NCBI GenBank assembly: GCA_963817525.1 | Contig: CAWFOU010000007.1 | Span: 768,001-832,000 of the forward strand | From: an uncultured archaeon | GTDB taxonomy: Archaea > Thermoproteota > Nitrososphaeria > Nitrososphaerales > Gagatemarchaeaceae | Length of the DNA: 64,000 nt | Direction: 5' to 3' | Translations under genes and position numbers: made by a program | Part shown: positions 43,675 to 49,542 of the stretch, piece after piece | How positions within the stretch are numbered: position 1 is the stretch's first letter | Layout of the letters: each line of letters begins with the position of its first letter | The notes under the pieces: model-generated | Database searches by the model: none | Seen by the model: only the letters and a program-made list of their open reading frames with translations | What the model was told of the DNA's origin: nothing

Positions 43675-45762
43675 TTATTCCGCTGTCGAATATTGCGCGG
43701 TGGCGGTCGACCTGCACTTGGTGCACCTCTCGGTCTTCGCGGGCAATTTTGACCCGCAGTTGCGGCAGAACGACACTATCTTCTCGATCCCGAAGAACTC
43801 GAGCTTGGCAGTCGCGCCCATCGTGAGGTTGTATATCCCGCGCATGTCGAGCGACGTCGCGTCGAGGTAGACCGACAGCCCTGCCGCGGCGCCCTGGCTG
43901 AGCTTCGAGATGTAGCCCATCGTCTCGGCGTTGTTGAGGTCCTCCATCGTCAGCCTGGCTGCCTGCGAGTATCCCCTCTTCTCCAGGCTCTGGAGGTTCG
44001 CCCTGCCATACCTCTCCGAGTCGAGTGCGGCCAGCCTCCCCGCCCCCTCCGCCTCGATGAGCGCTATCCCCAGGCGCTCGCTTTTCCCCGACCTCTCGGC
44101 TGCGGACTGCGCGGCGGTCCCCAGTACCTTCGCGGCGAGCTCCGCCCTGGCGCCGGGGGCTGCGTCCTTGCTCAGGCCGAAGAGGGCCTCGTCGAGCCCC
44201 ACCAGGTTCATCACTAGCGGCATCTCGTCGGAGCTCACGTTGTCCGACCCGAAGCTCAGCGCGGGCAGCAGCCCCTTGTTCATCACCCTCTCCAGGAGGC
44301 GCCTTCGCGTGATCAGCGCGTCCGACGCGACTCCCATGAGCATGGATAGCTTCGCCCTGAAGTACGTCTCGTCCTGGTTCGACTCGTAGGAGAGCCTCGG
44401 GAGGTTGATGCTCAGGTTGTGCAGGACGCTGACGTTGTCGGCCTGGTGGTCCGCCGGGAGGATGTCGAGGTTGATGCCCAGGGAGCTCCTCTTCTGCCCT
44501 GAGGGGAAGAACGCGACCTTCCCGCCGTGAAACGCTATCGCCGCCGCGTCCTTGAGGTAGGAGCTGTCTTCCGACTTGTTCGGTTTCGCCAACAGGAGGC
44601 GGACCTCCGGCCTCGGGACCTGCTCGACGTAGTCCCTGTATGCGTCGAGGGTCGCGGCGAGGGTCTTCTCCATGAGCTCCCGCCCCGCGTCGTCCTTGGC
44701 GTAGATGTCCAGCTGCAGGGTCACCGAAGGCCTCTGGGTGGGCTGGAGCACCGAGGAGACCTGGTCGAAGAACTTGACGAGCGCGTCTGCCACGTCGCGC
44801 TTCGTCCTCGACCTGGTGAACTGCGCGAGGTACTGGAGGAAGTTCCTGTAGACAATCTCCTGGTTCGCCTCCTTCTTGATGAGGGGGGTGATGTTTGAGA
44901 TGACGTTGATGGCCTCCTCCAGGTTCCCGGGGCTCTGGAGCATCGGGACGCCGGGAAGCCTCCCCTTAGGGTTGAACCCCGACGCGCGGACTGAGAGGAG
45001 GTCGAGGAATATCGTGTCGGGGAGGAGCGCCCACGTCCCCGCCTCCGAGATGTGGATGTCCCCGTTGAGGTGGGCGTCAGAGACGTCCCTGGGGAGCTGC
45101 TCGAGGAGGAGGTACTCGGAGAAGACGGACTTGCCCGTCTGGTGCAGCAGGGACTCCGCGTCCCCGCCGTCGCCCCCCGCCTTGGCGAGGAGCTGGGTGA
45201 CGTCGAACACGGGGAGGCCGAGTCGCGTGAGCTTGTGCCTGTACTCCTCGAGGTTCTGCTCGACGAGGAGCGAGTTGACCATCTCCCTGATGAGGGGGGC
45301 GGTCAGGTACTGGGTCTGGAACTTGTAGAGGCGGGACTCCGTCTCGCTGGTGATCTTCTGGGCGAGCTCGACGGGCATCCCCGCCTCCTTGACCAGCGAC
45401 TGGAGGATCTTGTCCGCGTTGAACTCCTCCATGGCCTGGCGGGTAGTCCTGACGTAGAGCTTCCCGCTCTCGATGAGCGACTGCTCCTCTATCTGCCGCG
45501 TGAGGTTGAGGACGAGCCTCCCGAGGTTGGTGACCGTGTACTTGCGCTCCTGCCTGTTGAGCTGGATGAGGAGCTGGCGGACGAGCTTCCTCAGGTGGTA
45601 GGCGAACTTGCCCGACTCCTTCTTCGACTTGAATCCGGCGAGCGACTTTAGCGCGCTGTAGGTGAGAGGGCCCTTGACGTTGAGTATCTTTAGGATCTCC
45701 AGCCTCTGCGGAGAGGCGATGACGCTGTAAATTGTCCTGACACGGCGAGGAGCGGCTTGCAT
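43675..45762 (-). CDS. wHTH-ATP cone-NrdD-like protein lacking glycyl-radical motif
   Basis: ArsR-like N-terminus (RLEILKIL...FAYHLRKL), ATP cone, TRLGLP, AHLNGDIH, SINLPR, CRNC/CTKC, no RxxGY. Confidence 0.85.
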   Translation of the reverse strand: MQAAPRRVRTIYSVIASPQRLEILKILNVKGPLTYSALKSLAGFKSKKESGKFAYHLRKLVRQLLIQLNRQERKYTVTNLGRLVLNLTRQIEEQSLIESGKLYVRTTRQAMEEFNADKILQSLVKEAGMPVELAQKITSETESRLYKFQTQYLTAPLIREMVNSLLVEQNLEEYRHKLTRLGLPVFDVTQLLAKAGGDGGDAESLLHQTGKSVFSEYLLLEQLPRDVSDAHLNGDIHISEAGTWALLPDTIFLDLLSVRASGFNPKGRLPGVPMLQSPGNLEEAINVISNITPLIKKEANQEIVYRNFLQYLAQFTRSRTKRDVADALVKFFDQVSSVLQPTQRPSVTLQLDIYAKDDAGRELMEKTLAATLDAYRDYVEQVPRPEVRLLLAKPNKSEDSSYLKDAAAIAFHGGKVAFFPSGQKRSSLGINLDILPADHQADNVSVLHNLSINLPRLSYESNQDETYFRAKLSMLMGVASDALITRRRLLERVMNKGLLPALSFGSDNVSSDEMPLVMNLVGLDEALFGLSKDAAPGARAELAAKVLGTAAQSAAERSGKSERLGIALIEAEGAGRLAALDSERYGRANLQSLEKRGYSQAARLTMEDLNNAETMGYISKLSQGAAAGLSVYLDATSLDMRGIYNLTMGATAKLEFFGIEKIVSFCRNCGSKLPAKTERCTKCRSTATAQYSTAE

Positions 45763-46013
45763 GTCTTCACACGCATGGAGTCTAAACTATATAATGATGA
45801 CATCACCGAGAGTCAAATAAAATCCACTCCCTCTGATGGAATGGCCGACGATATCGTAAGATTGGGCATAGTGTAGATTTCGCCCGCAGCACACGATGCT
45901 TACTTGACGAGTTCTTCCTCAGCTTGCTAAATGACCGAAGATTCTCAACCAGCTCCCAGAACTCATCGTAGCTCCTGCCTCTACGATAGACCTGCAAGAG
46001 CTGCTTGACAAGA

Positions 46014-46154
46014 TCACTTTCGATTTCTGCTAGTTCTTCGGCCAGAGCGTTTCTTTCCTCCCGACTTACCAATAATCGCTTCCACCGCTTTCTCCGCTAG
46101 CTTCCGTCGCTCCTCTTTGGACAAGCTGGAAATCTTCTCCTCGTCGCTTAGCAT
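46014..46154 (-). CDS. Small basic hypothetical protein (46 aa)
   Basis: MLSDEEKISSLSKEERRKLAEK...; GAAGGAGG SD and TTAAATA box upstream. Confidence 0.4.
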   Translation of the reverse strand: MLSDEEKISSLSKEERRKLAEKAVEAIIGKSGGKKRSGRRTSRNRK

Positions 46155-46218
46155 TCTTCAAGCTCCTCCTTCCCGCCTATTACTCGTGCTCGATATTTAA
46201 ACGGCATCGGCGTGAATT

Positions 46219-46371
46219 TGGTGGGGTCGCCCGGATTTGAACCGGGGGTCTCAAGCGCGCTCGGACTAAGCAAAAGCGATTTTGCCGTAGTCTCCCAAGG
46301 CTTGAAGCCTAGACCAGACTAGCCCCGCGACTCGAGCAGCAGCCCGATTATGCGGCCTAGCCGACGACCCC
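46219..46371 (-). tRNA. tRNA-Pro(TGG) with canonical intron (46258-46293) and non-canonical 15/16 intron (46319-46356)
   Basis: Spliced GGGGTCGTCGGCTAGTCTGGTCTAGGCTTCAAGCCTTGGGCGCTTGAGACCCCCGGTTCAAATCCGGGCGACCCCACCA; both introns form BHB motifs. Confidence 0.93.
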
Positions 46372-46416
46372 CGGCGTCCGCATGGATGGTTTTTATTAAA
46401 ACGATTCTAATCTATC

Positions 46417-46959
46417 GTGCGGGCTGTTTCAATACGCAGTTCCAGAATCGCAATAATGGCCTATCTAATCGGATTATTTGATGGCGAAGGCTGCCTGACA
46501 ATAAACGTCGAGAAAGACAAGAGGAAAGGAGCTATTTCAGAAGTCGGAGCATGGAGAATAATCCCATGCGTCCAATTCACCAATTCGGATAACGCCCTCG
46601 TCTTGGCGATTGACAGAATGCTCAAGACTCTTGGTCAGCATCCCACTATCCAAAGATATCCAAATGGGTCGGCTCACGTTAGACTCTGGCGTGCAAGTGA
46701 AATCGAGGCATTTTGTAGAGAAGCCATGATGTTTTCGAATGGCGCCAAATCGGCGCAGCTCTCCATATTCATCAACAAACTAATCCCCATTTTCGAATCT
46801 CGTCCTCTCATGGGCAAGAGAGGAGGAAGGATTTGGACCACGACGCTGTTTCTCCAAGCAATGACTCTGATAGATGAGATTAATCAATTCAAGAGAAGTC
46901 GAAGGACGGCTCGTCGTTACAGCCGGGCATACTTCGCAGCGCTCTGGAATTTGCAGTAG
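46417..46959 (+). CDS. Free-standing single-motif LAGLIDADG homing endonuclease
   Basis: AYLIGLFDGEGCL, VQFTNSD; AT-rich. Confidence 0.92.
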   Translation: MRAVSIRSSRIAIMAYLIGLFDGEGCLTINVEKDKRKGAISEVGAWRIIPCVQFTNSDNALVLAIDRMLKTLGQHPTIQRYPNGSAHVRLWRASEIEAFCREAMMFSNGAKSAQLSIFINKLIPIFESRPLMGKRGGRIWTTTLFLQAMTLIDEINQFKRSRRTARRYSRAYFAALWNLQ

Positions 46960-46964
46960 CCTCG

Positions 46965-46981
46965 GACTAGCCGACGACCCC
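46965..46981 (-). repeat. Orphan duplicate of tRNA-Pro 5' end
   Basis: Minus strand GGGGTCGTCGGCTAGTC equals first 17 nt of spliced tRNA-Pro. Confidence 0.9.
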
Positions 46982-47009
46982 TACGCCCCCCTCTCCGCCC
47001 ATTCGTTAG

Positions 47010-47591
47010 TTATGCATTCCTCTTTGAGACGAAGGGACTCCCCTCGACGAAGAAGCGCCACGGCAGCTCCTTCGCCTTGCTTATCCCTATCCTGGCCGAC
47101 GCCTTGACGGGCACGACCCCCTCCTTATCGACGACGTAGATCCTCTTGGAGGTCACCAGGTCCTCACCGTTGAAGCCCCCGTCGATCTCGAGGGCCTGCG
47201 TGAGGTTTCCCGGCCCGTTGGCGAGTCTCTGGAGCTCGGACACGCCTCGGTTTCTCATCATCTTCTCGACCCCCTCCATCGGCTCCAAGGCCCGGATCAA
47301 GATCCCCCCGGGCTCCCCAGGCTTCTCGGCGGTGAAGTTCAGGCACCAGTGGTTCCCGTAGGAGAAGAACATGTAGACGTGCCCGGCCTCCCCGAACATG
47401 ACGGCGCTCCTCTTGGTCGCCCTCCGATACGAGTGGCTCGCCGGGTCGTCGGTGCCCCGATAGGCCTCCGCCTCCACGATCCTCCCCGAGAGCACGCTCC
47501 TCCCCACCCTTCTCACGAGCACGCACCCCAGGAGCTCCCGCGCGACGTCGAGAGTGTATCGAGAGTAGAAGCTACGGCCGAGGCGGTCCAC
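47010..47591 (-). CDS. mpg: 3-methyladenine DNA glycosylase (AAG/MPG family)
   Basis: GRIVEAEAY..DPASH, YGNHWCLN, LIRALEP, GPGNL, RIGI. Confidence 0.95.
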   Translation of the reverse strand: MDRLGRSFYSRYTLDVARELLGCVLVRRVGRSVLSGRIVEAEAYRGTDDPASHSYRRATKRSAVMFGEAGHVYMFFSYGNHWCLNFTAEKPGEPGGILIRALEPMEGVEKMMRNRGVSELQRLANGPGNLTQALEIDGGFNGEDLVTSKRIYVVDKEGVVPVKASARIGISKAKELPWRFFVEGSPFVSKRNA

Positions 47592-47616
47592 ATGGCCCCC
47601 CGAGCTCGCCTGCTTA

Positions 47617-48192
47617 TCAGGCCTGCTTGTTGCTCAGGGGGTTGAGCCTCCAGACAAAGCGCATGGACACGGCGTACGTCACAGGGTAGGAGAGGATCGC
47701 TCCCACGATGCTCCCGAAGATCGGCGACAGGGCAATCGCCGCGAGCAGGACGAGCTGGACCAACACGATTATGATATTCCCCAGCAGCTTGGCGAGCTGG
47801 TACTTGACCCACCTCATCGACCAGCTGGCGGTGGTCCTCGAGTCGAGCTTCGTGACCGTGACCCTCTCGTTCACCAGGAAGGCCACCGTGGAGCCCGCGC
47901 CGAGGGCGAGCGCGTCGAGCCCCAAGATCGTAGGGGAGTCCGAGATGCCTGGCACCCCGATGGCGTGGTAGAGGACGAAGACCCCGAGGATAAGTATCCC
48001 CTCGGCGAAAATGAACCCGAGCCCGGTCGCGATCGCGAACTTGATTATCCTGAGGACGGCGAACCTCTCGACGAACCCGGGACGGGAGCCCTCCGTGTTC
48101 AATGCGCCCCCTGAAGACTCGCCGGGAATAAGGGTTGGGTATGCAGGATTCTCCTCCTTTTTCGAGGTCAAGAGGAGATACCTGGATTCCAT
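47617..48192 (-). CDS. GtrA-like membrane protein
   Basis: IIKFAIATGLG...FLVNERVT...RFVW; start uncertain. Confidence 0.7.
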   Translation of the reverse strand: MESRYLLLTSKKEENPAYPTLIPGESSGGALNTEGSRPGFVERFAVLRIIKFAIATGLGFIFAEGILILGVFVLYHAIGVPGISDSPTILGLDALALGAGSTVAFLVNERVTVTKLDSRTTASWSMRWVKYQLAKLLGNIIIVLVQLVLLAAIALSPIFGSIVGAILSYPVTYAVSMRFVWRLNPLSNKQA

Positions 48193-48235
48193 AAACTCTT
48201 TACGCCTCCGGAGCCTCGCGCGGGCACGTGAGAGC

Positions 48236-48844
48236 GTGAAGGGCCTGGCGGCAGTCGTCATAGTGTTCTTCGTCGCCGTCGCCGGGGCGTCCGCCTATGG
48301 CATAGCCAGCTCCGTCGCCTACACGCCTCCCTCCGCGACCCCCCCGGCGACGAACCCGGGGGCGGCCGCTGCCGAGGGCCAAAACAGCAGCGGCGCGAGC
48401 CCGTCGTGCACGGAAAAGTTGGCGAAGACCGTCAATAGCCAAGGTTACGAGCTACAGACGTTCCTCCCCTCCACGTCGGCCAAGAAGGGCGACGTCGTGT
48501 GCATCAACGTCGTCCTCCTCAACATCTACGGGAGGAACCTGACCCTCGGGTCCCATTCGGGGTACGTCACGTCCTACAACATAACCGAGAGCGACGGCGC
48601 GGTGGTCTACCAAAAGTCCTGCACCACGACGCCGCCGGTGGTCTCCTCCGGAAATGCCTCCAACTCGGGAAGCCCGATAGGCTCCTGGAGCTGCGCCGGC
48701 TATTGGTCTACGGGCATGGCCTACGACGGGATGGTCCCGAGCGCCGGGACCTACGACGTCGTGGTGACCGCCTTCGTGCCGGAGATGGTGGGGCTGGCGC
48801 AGTGGGAGGTCGGCTCCACTACCACCATCACGCTCTCCGGCTGA
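48236..48844 (+). CDS. Secreted protein
   Basis: Signal/TM then Cys-containing beta domain (W.T...VPSAGTY). Confidence 0.7.
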   Translation: MKGLAAVVIVFFVAVAGASAYGIASSVAYTPPSATPPATNPGAAAAEGQNSSGASPSCTEKLAKTVNSQGYELQTFLPSTSAKKGDVVCINVVLLNIYGRNLTLGSHSGYVTSYNITESDGAVVYQKSCTTTPPVVSSGNASNSGSPIGSWSCAGYWSTGMAYDGMVPSAGTYDVVVTAFVPEMVGLAQWEVGSTTTITLSG

Positions 48845-48882
48845 GGCTCGAGCGCGCCGATCCTCGCCCGTCGGCTTGTTTA

Positions 48883-49542
48883 TTGCCGACCCCGCTCCAA
48901 GAGCGGCGAAGGACTGAGACCACGGCCTTCGCGAGCAGAGCGCTGACAGCGGTCCTGGTTGTCGTCATCTTGGCCATTGCCGGCGCGTTTGGGATATACT
49001 ACGCCAGCACGTCAGCCACCCTCTCCGCCCAGGGGCAGTCGATTTCCGCCCTCGAATCGACCGCCAGCTCTCTCGCGTCCCACCCCGTCACCTCGACCGC
49101 CACCAGCGTCTCTACGCAGACAGAAACGACCACCTCCGTCTCGACCACCCGGACTGTGATCGGGATCACAACCACCCAATTCCCGGGCCTGCCTTGGCCC
49201 AGCGCCATTTTCCTGACCTCTTCGGATGGGGGCTGCAACGGGATCTGTCTCACCACCAGCTTGAGCGGAGCGATCGTCTTCATCTGCCCTAACCCAATCA
49301 CGACGGCTACGCAAAGTTGCCCGGTCACCTTTTACAGCACCTTAGGCGAGGAAAACATGTCTATTGTCGTCACGTACCCCGAGTACAACCAGACCAACGA
49401 GATGCCCGTCGACAACTGCGAGTACGACGCCCATTGGCTTCCGAGCGGGACGCTTGTGGCCGCAGGCCAGGGCTACGATTTCTGCCTCCAGGTCGGGTCG
49501 AACGCGCTTGTGGTCGCGCAGCAGGCCCCTGGCCCAGTCTAA
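48883..49542 (+). CDS. Membrane-anchored Cys-rich secreted protein
   Basis: TM, T-rich linker, Cys domain similar to N-half of 10688-11737; start uncertain. Confidence 0.7.
   Translation: MPTPLQERRRTETTAFASRALTAVLVVVILAIAGAFGIYYASTSATLSAQGQSISALESTASSLASHPVTSTATSVSTQTETTTSVSTTRTVIGITTTQFPGLPWPSAIFLTSSDGGCNGICLTTSLSGAIVFICPNPITTATQSCPVTFYSTLGEENMSIVVTYPEYNQTNEMPVDNCEYDAHWLPSGTLVAAGQGYDFCLQVGSNALVVAQQAPGPV

What the first reader, a model, noticed from the sequence alone, without database searches (positions are those of the whole stretch)
46219..46981. tRNA-Pro with two alternative 5' ends around an antisense LAGLIDADG gene
Seen: the inner 5' exon has its own TTTAATAA box and a 38-nt 15/16 BHB intron. 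Beyond the nuclease lies GGGGTCGTCGGCTAGTC, matching the spliced tRNA 2 nt past the junction. The intron interrupts pseudo-palindrome CTAGTCTGGTCTAG. The outer copy can also form a BHB with the distal intron end (CCG-A-GGCT pairing with AGTC-G-CGG), which would define a ~650-nt intron holding the antisense ORF. Inference: either the cassette delivered promoter, exon and immunity intron, or it invaded an existing intron and duplicated exon 1.
Basis: partly seen in the sequence, partly recalled or inferred. Interest (0 to 1): 0.9.

Follow-up and report, generated by a model that had tools for sequence, protein, structure and literature searches.

The report
Nuclease cassette inside archaeal tRNA-Pro gene
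A selfish nuclease gene has landed in the proline-tRNA gene of a soil archaeon together with its own promoter and an intron-bearing new front end of the tRNA, leaving the old front end stranded, and relatives carry comparable cassettes at the same kind of gene, which hints at one way tRNA introns may spread.

Summary
Upstream lie a TTTAATAA box, an antisense 167-aa I-CreI-like LAGLIDADG gene (46456-46959) and a second copy of tRNA nt 1-17 (46981-46965).

Relatives show that the outer copy sits at the ancestral tRNA start, just after a methylpurine-glycosylase gene and behind the conserved promoter motif CATAACTAA. The 593 bp between the copies are foreign: 47% GC against 61%, and no close homologue in 40 relatives or 400 genomes of the order.

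A second, distantly related LAGLIDADG lineage (HEG-B) abuts exon 1 of a tRNA-Pro gene in 9 of 9 close homologues in this family. Four of these loci keep a stranded 5' fragment whose intron content or sequence differs from the working copy.

Best reading (0.72): a homing-endonuclease cassette that carries a promoter and an intron-bearing replacement 5' part. The outer copy is then the remnant of the old gene.

Intron immunity is inferred. It is a new variant of a known kind.

The parts
47006..47014 (-). Ancestral tRNA promoter element CATAACTAA. It overlaps the stop codon of the methylpurine-DNA glycosylase (MPG) gene and lies 25 nt upstream of the outer exon-1 copy.
   Evidence: Conserved at the same place in the relatives read. 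The same motif, CATAACTAG or TATAACTAG, lies 22-23 nt upstream of three other tRNA genes of this genome.
46965..46981 (-). Outer copy of tRNA-Pro nt 1-17. It is the stranded 5' fragment of the pre-insertion gene. As a 19-nt repeat with one mismatch it spans 46963-46981.
   Evidence: It aligns with the start of the orthologous tRNA genes and their upstream 45 nt in G006, G022, G008, G018 and G020.
46372..46964 (.). Inserted cassette between the two exon-1 copies: 593 bp, 47.2% GC. Its right-hand limit inside the tRNA gene is not defined.
   Evidence: Genome mean is 60.7% GC (SD 4.7). Only 0.5% of 4759 windows of 593 bp are as GC-poor. It is absent at this locus in the relatives read.
46456..46959 (+). 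HEG-A: a single-domain LAGLIDADG homing-endonuclease gene of 167 aa, antisense to the tRNA. The motif is LIGLFDGEG at residues 4-12. The stop codon lies 5 nt from the outer copy.
   Evidence: Pfam matches above cut-off. AlphaFold model with pLDDT 83. Best Foldseek matches are I-CreI, I-CvuI, I-MsoI and archaeal I-Vdi141I, TM 0.65-0.73. Four metagenome homologues are full-length or partial and end at the same place.
46390..46402 (.). A+T-rich box in the 84-bp divergent spacer. It reads TTTTAATAAAAA towards the tRNA and TTTTTATTAAAA towards the nuclease gene. It is the likely TATA box for the inner tRNA, and possibly for both genes.
   Evidence: TTTTAATAA and TTTTAATCC boxes precede tRNA-Ala(cgc) and tRNA-Trp in the same genome. 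Use of the box in either direction is inferred.
46357..46371 (-). Inner exon 1 (tRNA nt 1-15).
46319..46356 (-). D-loop intron of 38 nt at position 15/16, with a relaxed BHB motif.
   Evidence: The same register holds in 11 of 11 related introns with covarying inner helices.
46294..46318 (-). Exon 2 (tRNA nt 16-37, including anticodon TGG).
46258..46293 (-). Canonical 37/38 intron of 36 nt, with a strict hBHBh' motif.
   Evidence: central helix 4 of 4, inner helix 5 contiguous pairs, outer helix 7 pairs.
46219..46257 (-). Exon 3 (nt 38-76, CCA encoded).
   Evidence: Thirty-nine nt are identical to the tRNA-Pro(CGG) paralogue.
47010..47591 (-). Methylpurine-DNA glycosylase gene, the conserved upstream neighbour that anchors the synteny.
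   Evidence: Pfam PF02245, E 3.5e-65. Matched in 30 of 41 genomes searched.

Best explanation
A small homing-endonuclease cassette has inserted into the D-loop region of the only tRNA-Pro(UGG) gene of this archaeon. The titles of two related records name Nitrososphaerales and Nitrososphaerota MAGs.

What the cassette carries:
- an intact I-CreI-like LAGLIDADG gene, read away from the tRNA;
- a TATA box;
- a fresh exon 1 followed by a BHB intron.

The working gene is therefore the inner one (46371-46219). It is transcribed from the cassette's promoter and matured by the cell's splicing endonuclease, which removes the 15/16 and 37/38 introns. The outer 17-19 nt are what is left of the old gene. 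They still sit behind the old promoter.

Mobility is inferred, not shown. The nuclease would cut tRNA-Pro DNA whose D-arm is uninterrupted. The break would be repaired from a cassette-bearing genome, using the stranded fragment plus upstream DNA as one homology arm and the 3' part of the tRNA as the other. The intron beside the cut site would keep the carrier's own copy uncut.

Shown: the anatomy, the synteny, the foreign composition, the nuclease fold, and the recurrence of comparable cassettes at tRNA-Pro genes. Inferred: cleavage specificity, immunity, which promoter is used, and the fate of the outer transcript.
For: The tRNA.
- The joined exons fold as tRNA-Pro(tgg). They equal the intron-free gene of relative G006 read.
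- Both introns sit in BHB motifs.
- The genome has two splicing-endonuclease catalytic-domain genes (PF01974).

The outer copy is ancestral.
- Its upstream 45 nt, including CATAACTAA and the MPG stop codon, align with the tRNA-Pro upstream region of G006, G022, G008, G018 and G020. The inner copy's upstream region does not align.

The cassette is foreign.
- It has 47.2% GC, in the lowest 0.5% of genome windows.
- No close homologue of the nuclease turned up in 40 relatives, in 400 genomes of the order, or in the first genome-contig scan. Among 1.84 billion representatives only 8 reach E<=1e-10.

The nuclease.
- Pfam matches are above cut-off. The fold matches I-CreI and I-Vdi141I. The acidic motif is conserved in the 4 of 5 aligned sequences that include the N-terminus.

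The inner promoter.
- TTTAATAA lies 21 nt upstream, like other tRNA genes of this genome.

Recurrence in a second lineage, HEG-B (double-motif LAGLIDADG).
- hhalign to HEG-A gives 94.8% probability. The best PDB matches are I-HjeMI and I-AniI at E about 0.01.
- All 9 of 9 family loci with E<=1.6e-62 abut exon 1 of a tRNA-Pro gene. One of them is this genome's own CGG paralogue, where the nuclease gene is frameshifted.
- Weaker family members are free-standing: ARAGORN called a tRNA in 0 of 19 such loci.
- Four of the 9 keep a clear outer fragment. It ends at nt 26 in G314, 29 in G010, 31 in G018 and 35 in G263. Each fragment differs from the inner copy in introns or sequence.
- Those outer fragments pair poorly with the inner 3' splice sites: at most 3 contiguous inner pairs in 3 combinations tested.

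No other gene.
- No ORF other than the nuclease gene of 60 aa or more lies wholly in the 593 bp.

Assembly.
- Contigs of three public runs bridge both junctions without differences. They come from one study and may be the source samples.
Against: - No RNA or biochemical data were available. The nuclease's target is unknown.
- HEG-A is seen in genomic context only here. The contigs of its four homologues could not be fetched, so its association with tRNA-Pro rests on one locus plus analogy with HEG-B.
- The outer copy is not obviously dead. It keeps a promoter motif used by three other tRNA genes. Only one TTTT run lies between it and the inner gene. Its flank forms 7 of 8 inner-helix pairs with the 3' splice site.
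- The end of the outer copy fits an intron-free allele (TC) and an intron start (T-CCG) equally well. The state of the recipient allele is therefore open.
- The immunity idea is not clean. The invaded allele of G263 already had a 29/30 intron. The inner copies of G010, G191 and G196 lack 29/30 and have only 37/38. Introns are frequent in nuclease-free copies too: 7 of 9 read have at least one. The contrast of 0 of 10 against 2 of 9 intron-free copies is not significant.
- Five of 9 HEG-B loci show no significant outer fragment.
Confidence: 0.72

Rival explanations
1. Long-intron reading. The gene is read from the ancestral promoter. The outer copy is the real exon 1. A 648-nt BHB intron (46966-46319) holding the antisense nuclease gene, an internal promoter and a pseudo-exon is cut out. 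The inner exon 1 is a by-product or a second, redundant start.
For: - The outer copy forms a BHB with the 3' splice site: central helix 4 of 4, two AGT bulges, inner helix 7 of 8, longer than the 4 pairs of the inner copy.
- Duplex energies of the isolated strands are similar: -25.7 against -27.0 kcal/mol.
- The ancestral promoter motif is intact.
- There is no run of 5 or more T between the copies.
- Splicing from either copy gives the same mature tRNA.
Against: - The inner copy has its own well-placed TATA box.
- The nuclease gene is antisense, unlike intron-borne archaeal nuclease genes as I recall them.
- RNAfold of the 766-nt precursor gives zero probability to the outer helix. Long-range folds are unreliable, so this is weak evidence.
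- In the HEG-B loci the outer fragments end where the inner copy has no matching intron, or they pair poorly. Such fragments are therefore remnants as a rule.
- Once the shared CCG is discounted, the extra pairing has a chance of 0.02-0.07.
Confidence: 0.13
2. Integration by recombination on a short repeat. A small circular element carrying the nuclease gene, a promoter and a 19-bp tRNA-Pro segment integrated by site-specific or homologous (Campbell-type) recombination. This duplicated the 19 bp as attL and attR. The nuclease plays no part in insertion. Everything from the intron onwards is the original gene.
For: - The only repeat is a 19-nt direct repeat flanking the insert. This is the signature of integrative elements at tRNA genes, as described for SSV1 and pNOB8 in passages of PMC3293823.
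- The element supplies the promoter, as elements that target the 5' end must.
Against: - There is no integrase or other recombinase. The only substantial ORF in the 593 bp is the LAGLIDADG gene.
- In the parallel HEG-B loci the two tRNA copies are not simple repeats. The outer one is intron-free where the inner one has introns, or the anticodon differs.
- A 19-bp homology is short for homologous integration.
Confidence: 0.1
3. Chance repeat or assembly artefact.
For: - The 13-mer GGGGTCGTCGGCT also occurs by chance inside coding regions of several genomes.
- The genome is a MAG with 8.75% estimated contamination.
Against: - The outer copy is 17-19 nt long, lies exactly at the syntenic tRNA start, and continues the conserved upstream alignment.
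- Both junctions are bridged by contigs from three runs.
- The contig is 1.28 Mb long.
Confidence: 0.02

Closest known systems
tRNA-Thr(GGU) locus of Caldiarchaeum subterraneum (Sugahara et al. 2012, PMC3293823; abstract, section 6 and passages read)
   Same: A 5' tRNA fragment (nt 1-27) is stranded upstream of a 1.87-kb insertion. The insertion ends in an 813-bp ORF directly adjacent to, and on the same strand as, a complete tRNA copy that has one more intron than the uninvaded allele. The authors proposed intron gain through a mobile element.
   Different: There the ORF was called a putative DNA-binding or recombination protein by SVMProt, and the element was likened to pNOB8-type integrative plasmids. 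Here the ORFs are LAGLIDADG nucleases, the cassettes are 0.6-1.3 kb, the target is tRNA-Pro, and the case recurs across genera.
Mobile endonuclease ORFs (mORFs) with a duplicated gene end in fungal mitochondria: Allomyces atp6; Glomus atp6, atp9, cox2 and nad3 (Beaudet et al. 2013, PMC3630166; passages read)
   Same: A LAGLIDADG (or GIY-YIG) gene travels with a foreign copy of the part of the host gene it displaces. The native part stays behind as an unexpressed remnant.
   Different: Those are protein genes whose 3' end is replaced in frame. Here an RNA gene has its 5' end and promoter replaced, in an archaeal chromosome, and the replacement carries BHB introns.
Collaborative homing of a free-standing endonuclease and an ORF-less intron: F-CphI and the psbA intron of cyanophages (described in the background of PMC6083498; passages read)
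   Same: The nuclease gene lies beside, not inside, a gene whose intron interrupts the presumed target. The intron would protect the carrier and would be carried along.
   Different: That case has a group I intron, a phage and a different nuclease family, and cleavage was shown by experiment. Here the intron is a BHB intron and cleavage is untested. In addition a gene fragment is duplicated.
LAGLIDADG genes inside archaeal rRNA BHB introns, such as I-DmoI (recalled) and I-Vdi141I (PDB 3e54 title)
   Same: Same nuclease superfamily. The single-domain form resembles I-Vdi141I. The host gene is a stable RNA gene with BHB splicing.
   Different: There, as I recall, the ORF lies within the intron on the sense strand and no exon is duplicated. 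Here it is antisense, has its own promoter, and lies inside an intron only under the long-intron reading.
Integrative elements with a duplicated tRNA segment at their borders: SSV1 and pNOB8 types (passages of PMC3293823)
   Same: Direct repeats of part of a tRNA gene flank the insert, and the tRNA gene is reconstituted.
   Different: There is no integrase, the insert is only 593 bp, and in the sister loci the two tRNA copies are not identical repeats.
Split and multiple-intron tRNA genes of Archaea, and the idea of Randau and Soll that gene disruption protects tRNA genes from invaders (cited in PMC3293823)
   Same: There are non-canonical introns at 15/16 and 29/30. A 5' piece with its own promoter has a flank complementary to the partner strand.
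   Different: The 5' piece here is redundant with an intact copy. Trans- or long-range splicing is not shown.

Membership tests
LAGLIDADG homing endonuclease (HEG-A, 46456-46959) | Profile match to a LAGLIDADG family above the curated cut-off | tested here: met
   PF14528 31 bits against a cut-off of 22.5; PF00961 26.7 against 23.1.
LAGLIDADG homing endonuclease (HEG-A, 46456-46959) | LAGLIDADG helix motif ending in an acidic residue | tested here: met
   LIGLFDGEG at residues 4-12. GLFDGEGC is shared by the 4 aligned sequences that include the N-terminus. Which residue is catalytic is recalled from I-CreI, not tested.
LAGLIDADG homing endonuclease (HEG-A, 46456-46959) | Alpha-beta-beta-alpha-beta-beta-alpha fold like I-CreI | tested here: met
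   Model pLDDT 83. Foldseek gives E about 1e-6, probability 1.00 and TM 0.65-0.73 to I-CreI, I-CvuI, I-MsoI and I-Vdi141I. The N-terminal 10 residues are modelled poorly.
LAGLIDADG homing endonuclease (HEG-A, 46456-46959) | Site-specific DNA cleavage and homing | not testable with these tools
   Needs enzyme assays or crosses.
LAGLIDADG homing endonuclease (HEG-B lineage at tRNA-Pro of relatives and of the CGG paralogue) | Profile or structure-based match to LAGLIDADG enzymes | tested here: inconclusive
   - Pfam PF14528 reaches only E 0.02-0.05, below cut-off.
- A profile against the PDB has I-HjeMI and I-AniI as best matches, at E about 0.01.
- hhalign to the HEG-A alignment gives probability 94.8%, E 5e-8.
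- Two motifs are visible: GLRAGDLN and AG(L/Y)SDS(D/E)G.
Archaeal BHB intron | Two 3-nt bulges separated by a 4-bp helix at the splice sites | tested here: met
   The 37/38 intron has a strict hBHBh' motif. The 15/16 intron has the central helix, both bulges and the inner helix, but no outer helix. Eleven of 11 related introns fit the same register.
Archaeal BHB intron | Removal restores a canonical tRNA | tested here: met
   ARAGORN calls tRNA-Pro(tgg) on the joined exons.
Archaeal BHB intron | Splicing endonuclease present; splicing observed | tested here: inconclusive
   Two PF01974 loci are present in the genome. No RNA run holds the locus, so splicing itself is not observed.
Mobile nuclease-bearing BHB intron (rRNA-intron type) | Nuclease ORF inside the intron, on the strand of the host RNA | tested here: not met
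   The ORF is on the opposite strand. It lies within an intron only if the outer copy is taken as the exon.
Integrase-type integrative element at a tRNA gene | Integrase or recombinase gene in the element | tested here: not met
   The 593-bp insert holds only the LAGLIDADG ORF.
Integrase-type integrative element at a tRNA gene | Direct repeat of part of the tRNA gene at both borders | tested here: met
   19 nt, 95% identical, spacing 610.
Endonuclease mORF with a duplicated host-gene part | Nuclease gene plus a foreign copy of the displaced gene part, with the native part left as a remnant at the ancestral place | tested here: met
   Here it is the 5' part of an RNA gene. That the inner part is foreign is shown for four HEG-B loci and only inferred for this locus.
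Collaborative homing | The nuclease cuts the intron-free allele at or near the intron insertion site, and the intron blocks cutting | not testable with these tools
   Only positional evidence exists. The fragment ends at nt 17-19 with the intron at 15/16 here. In HEG-B loci the fragments end at nt 26-35 with introns at 29/30 or 37/38.

The most novel reading that the evidence does not exclude
LAGLIDADG cassettes are a working vehicle of tRNA-intron gain in these archaea. They cut tRNA-Pro genes whose D-arm or anticodon arm is uninterrupted, and they install a promoter plus an intron-bearing 5' part that is immune. Intron-free alleles (the outer fragments of G018 and G314) are thereby replaced by interrupted ones. 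The window's locus would be a step further. Its stranded exon keeps a live promoter and a BHB-competent flank. Loss of the inner exon would then leave the first nuclease-carrying BHB intron in a tRNA gene, and a rearrangement would leave a split tRNA gene.
Probability: 0.3. Interest if true: 0.85.

Novelty: new variant of a known kind. Interest (0 to 1): 0.66.

Why it matters
How archaeal tRNA genes acquire their many non-canonical introns, and how split tRNA genes arise, is unsettled. A 2026 preprint on Asgard tRNA introns states that how the introns arrive remains open (passages read). The one published locus that suggests a mobile-element route (Caldiarchaeum, PMC3293823) had an ORF of unclear nature.

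Here the agent can be named, and it recurs. There are two LAGLIDADG lineages and ten tRNA-Pro genes in nine genomes of one family. Some loci keep before-and-after states in one place: an intron-free stranded fragment next to an intron-bearing working copy.

This makes two ideas directly testable:
- that selfish nucleases spread intron-bearing tRNA alleles;
- that introns shield tRNA genes from invaders (the idea of Randau and Soll).

The test is a simple cleavage assay on synthetic tRNA-Pro DNA with and without introns.

There is also a practical point. Standard tRNA finders miss or miscall these genes.

Tried and rejected
Gene finders.
- ARAGORN with default settings found 0 tRNAs in the window.
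- Rfam at E<=1 over 44000-49000 gave 0 matches, so no tRNA, group I or group II model matched.

Context of HEG-A homologues.
- The first genome-contig scan confirmed no relative.
- The metagenome-contig scan with alignment A1 confirmed none.
- The viral-contig scan confirmed none.
- An exact search for the 22-nt outer junction in metagenome contigs gave 0 matches.
- The flanks of P0002-P0005 therefore remain unseen.
- Weak HEG-A-like matches in G020, G011, G018, G029 and G000:C2 (E 1e-7 to 1e-2) are other LAGLIDADG proteins. ARAGORN called no tRNA in the 7 loci checked.

Extra copies of the 13-mer.
- Extra copies of GGGGTCGTCGGCT in G000:C1, G007, G009, G008, G011, G005 and G013 are chance matches inside coding regions.
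- In one search, 24 matches were not listed, so further tandem pairs may exist (for example in G289, G308, G340).

Outer fragments upstream of HEG-B.
- None is significant in G002, G191, G015 or the G000 CGG locus. G196 is borderline, with 0.015 of shuffles reaching its score.

Folding.
- RNAfold does not predict the central BHB helix even for the short precursor. It prefers GGCUAG/CUAGUC pairing, so thermodynamic folding alone is a poor judge here.

Dimer prediction.
- Two copies of HEG-A: no verdict.

RNA and reads.
- No RNA holder was listed among public runs.
- Laying four DNA runs showed no joint that lacks the cassette. Coverage is thin, and one X1 contig runs on unlike the window past 46219, where exon 3 is shared with the paralogue.

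Tools and files not available.
- The look-up of encoding contigs was not called because it is declared closed.
- Supplementary files of PMC3293823 (alignments of its regions a and b) could not be seen. They may bear on whether its ORF 'b' is a LAGLIDADG protein.

Loci not followed.
- The G014 locus, where MPG and tRNA-Pro lie 11 kb apart, was fetched (L041) but not read.
Full report
What is there.

Read on the minus strand, the region holds the following, in order:
- the end of a methylpurine-DNA glycosylase (MPG) gene (47591-47010; Pfam PF02245);
- the motif CATAACTAA (47014-47006);
- a 17-nt copy of the start of a tRNA (46981-46965);
- an ORF on the opposite strand (46456-46959);
- an A+T-rich box (TTTAATAA, 46400-46393);
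- a split tRNA gene (46371-46219).

The tRNA exons are 46371-46357, 46318-46294 and 46257-46219. Joined in a script, they are called tRNA-Pro(tgg) by ARAGORN. The product equals the intron-free tRNA-Pro gene of relative G006. Default ARAGORN and Rfam miss the gene, and ARAGORN with introns allowed miscalls it.

The genome has one gene each for the GGG, CGG and UGG isoacceptors. This locus is therefore the only UGG gene.

The introns.

The 36-nt intron at 37/38 has a textbook hBHBh' motif.

The 38-nt intron could be cut in seven registers because GGCTAG is repeated. Only 15/16 gives two 3-nt bulges around a 4-bp helix and a 4-bp inner helix. There is no outer helix.

The same register holds in 11 of 11 related D-loop introns, and their inner helices differ in sequence. 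This is the best evidence that the intron is real and is placed correctly. Two genes with the catalytic domain of the splicing endonuclease are present. That a two-subunit enzyme accepts relaxed motifs is recalled from the literature, not tested here.

The nuclease.

The 167-aa product matches two LAGLIDADG Pfam families above cut-off. It carries the motif LIGLFDGEG. It folds like the single-domain enzymes I-CreI, I-CvuI, I-MsoI and archaeal I-Vdi141I.

It is rare:
- 4 homologues at 44-63% identity among 5.8 billion clustered proteins;
- 8 representatives with E<=1e-10 among 1.84 billion;
- no close homologue in 40 relatives or 400 genomes of the order.

A dimer prediction gave no verdict.

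Which copy is the old one.

A 1.5-kb query found the MPG gene next to tRNA-Pro in most genomes of the genus.

In the relatives I read, the tRNA starts about 25-30 nt after CATAACTA, which overlaps the MPG stop codon. These relatives are G022, G008, G007, G015, G011, G006, G020, G009, G017, G018, G002 and G010. In G006 and G020 a 0.38-kb insert separates MPG from this promoter, and in G009 a 2.3-kb insert does.

The window's outer copy and its 45 upstream bases align with that region. The upstream bases of the inner copy do not.

The 593 bp between the copies have 47.2% GC. The genome mean is 60.7%, and only 0.5% of windows are as low. So the outer copy is ancestral, and the nuclease gene, the A+T box and at least inner exon 1 are newcomers.

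CATAACTA(G) also precedes three other tRNA genes of this genome at the same distance. The old promoter is therefore probably still active.

Contigs of three public runs from one study bridge both junctions.

The same theme elsewhere.

An exact scan for the first 13 nt of the tRNA in 97 genomes of the family found tandem pairs 0.6-1.3 kb apart in G000, G018, G010, G263 and G314. Twenty-four matches were not listed.

Between the copies in G018, G010, G263 and G314 lies a 255-400-aa ORF on the tRNA's strand. I call it HEG-B.
- It has two LAGLIDADG-like motifs.
- It is related to HEG-A by profile comparison at 94.8% probability.
- Its best PDB matches are I-HjeMI and I-AniI, weakly.
- Its Pfam match is below cut-off.

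In the family-wide search, 9 loci score E<=1.6e-62. All 9 end on exon 1 of a tRNA-Pro gene.
- UGG genes: G018, G002, G010, G191 and G196.
- CGG genes: G263, G314, G015 and this genome's own CGG paralogue, where the nuclease gene is frameshifted.

More distant family members (E>=1e-52) are free-standing. ARAGORN called a tRNA in 0 of the 19 other loci checked. In the 17 whose downstream flank I also printed, no T-loop-like motif lay just downstream of the ORF.

G017 keeps only the last codons of HEG-B, with the TATA box, in front of its tRNA-Pro.

What the sister loci say about history.

The stranded fragments end at different positions:
- nt 26 in G314;
- nt 29 in G010;
- nt 31 in G018;
- nt 35 in G263.

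The fragments of G018 and G314 are intron-free, while the working copies downstream carry introns at 15/16 and 29/30. The G263 fragment has a UGG anticodon start and two introns, while its working copy is CGG with one intron. The two copies in G010 differ by a base. The working 5' part therefore came with the cassette. This is intron gain by allele replacement.

These fragments pair poorly with the 3' splice sites downstream, so they are remnants.

Five of the nine HEG-B loci show no significant fragment, as expected if remnants decay.

Back to the window.

By analogy, the outer copy is the remnant and the inner gene works.
- the live-looking old promoter;
- the lack of a strong T-run before the inner gene;
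- the flank CCGAGGCT, which pairs 7 of 8 with the strand before the 3' splice site in exactly the register a BHB needs.

By my own calculation, the chance of that pairing is about 0.006 if the flank were unrelated sequence. It is 0.02-0.07 if the CCG belongs to the 19-nt repeat.

Two of the seven pairs use the reverse complement of the nuclease's stop codon. Homologues end at the same residue, so the stop codon belongs to the cassette.

The end of the outer copy fits exon 2 (TC) and an intron start (T-CCG, as in G002's intron) equally well. I therefore cannot tell whether the invaded allele was intron-free or was hit inside an intron.

Either transcript would give the same mature tRNA.

Mechanism proposed (inferred).

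The nuclease cuts an uninterrupted D-arm. The best local pseudo-palindrome of the D-arm is centred at nt 18/19, but it has only 6 of 11 matches and is tied with two other centres.

Repair copies the cassette from a carrier. The 15/16 intron, 2 nt from the fragment's end, splits the site in the carrier's own copy.

For HEG-B the fragment ends (nt 26-35) and the introns at 29/30 or 37/38 in all nine working copies fit a site over the anticodon arm.

Against a clean immunity story:
- the invaded allele of G263 already had a 29/30 intron;
- introns are common without nucleases;
- the contrast of 0 of 10 nuclease-linked against 2 of 9 nuclease-free intron-less copies (G006, G157) is not significant.

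Comparison with what is known.

The nearest published case is the tRNA-Thr locus of Caldiarchaeum. It has a stranded 5' fragment, a 1.87-kb insertion with an adjacent 813-bp ORF, and one more intron. It was interpreted as a plasmid-type integration (PMC3293823).

In logic the cassette resembles two other systems:
- fungal mitochondrial endonuclease ORFs that carry a replacement gene end (PMC3630166);
- collaborative homing of a free-standing nuclease with a protective intron (PMC6083498).

Searches for LAGLIDADG together with tRNA introns, Thaumarchaeota or Nitrososphaer* found no paper describing such cassettes. Archaeal group I introns with LAGLIDADG genes are all in rRNA in PMC6125680 (passages read). 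These searches cover only the held library.

I file the locus as a new variant of a known kind.

Taxonomy.

The two HEG-B loci returned from named records carry titles of Nitrososphaerales and Nitrososphaerota MAGs. The runs that hold the locus are soil metagenomes.

Noticed in passing
G000 contig C7:608113-609420 (outside the window): The tRNA-Pro(CGG) paralogue has three introns (15/16, 29/30, 37/38). It is preceded directly by a HEG-B gene with an N-terminal double HTH that is broken by a frameshift near C7:608600. So both the UGG and the CGG tRNA-Pro genes of this genome carry LAGLIDADG cassettes, from different lineages.
   Followed up: partly
L003 2040-2400 (G006) and L007 reverse strand 2060-2445 (G020): A roughly 0.38-kb insert with a small hydrophobic ORF lies between the MPG gene and the tRNA-Pro promoter. 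In G020 it is flanked by a duplicated 15 nt, GAAGAGGAACGCATA, which is the MPG end and promoter. This is another small insertion at the same hotspot.
   Followed up: no
L042 reverse strand (G017), about 60 nt upstream of tRNA-Pro, and 394-991: Only the last codons of HEG-B (the AEIQYN region with the TATAATA box) remain in front of the tRNA, a relic of a lost cassette. A separate ORF with the LAGLIDADG-like motif AIFDGEGS lies upstream of the MPG gene.
   Followed up: no
The default run finds no tRNA in the whole 64-kb window, so annotation of this genome will under-count tRNAs.
   Followed up: no
Genome-wide; tRNA upstream regions: At least four tRNA genes (Arg-ccg, Ser-cga, Thr-tgt and the ancestral tRNA-Pro start) share the unusual promoter element (A/T)CATAACTA(G/A) 22-25 nt upstream, in place of a TTTAAA-type box.
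   Followed up: partly
G000 C8:60612-61349, C2:4199-4897, C1:1099998-1100306, and about 80 places in 58 of 97 family genomes: There is a large family of free-standing proteins of 350-410 aa, with an HTH region plus LAGLIDADG-like domains, related to HEG-B but not next to tRNA genes. Several lie beside the same conserved neighbour gene (see the downstream flanks).
   Followed up: partly
window 43675-45762 (minus strand): A 695-aa protein combines an N-terminal HTH (DUF7347), an ATP-cone and an anaerobic ribonucleotide-reductase-like (NrdD) domain with a C-terminal zinc ribbon.
   Followed up: no
window 46219, run X1 record 2: A 591-nt contig matches 46219-46671 exactly and then runs on for 138 nt unlike the window, beyond the tRNA 3' end. 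Exon 3 is identical over 39 nt to the CGG paralogue, so this may be an assembly switch. A strain with another downstream flank is not excluded.
   Followed up: no
L041 (G014:C9:45500-58500): In G014 the MPG gene and tRNA-Pro lie 11 kb apart, which may be a larger insertion at the same site. The locus was fetched but not read.
   Followed up: no
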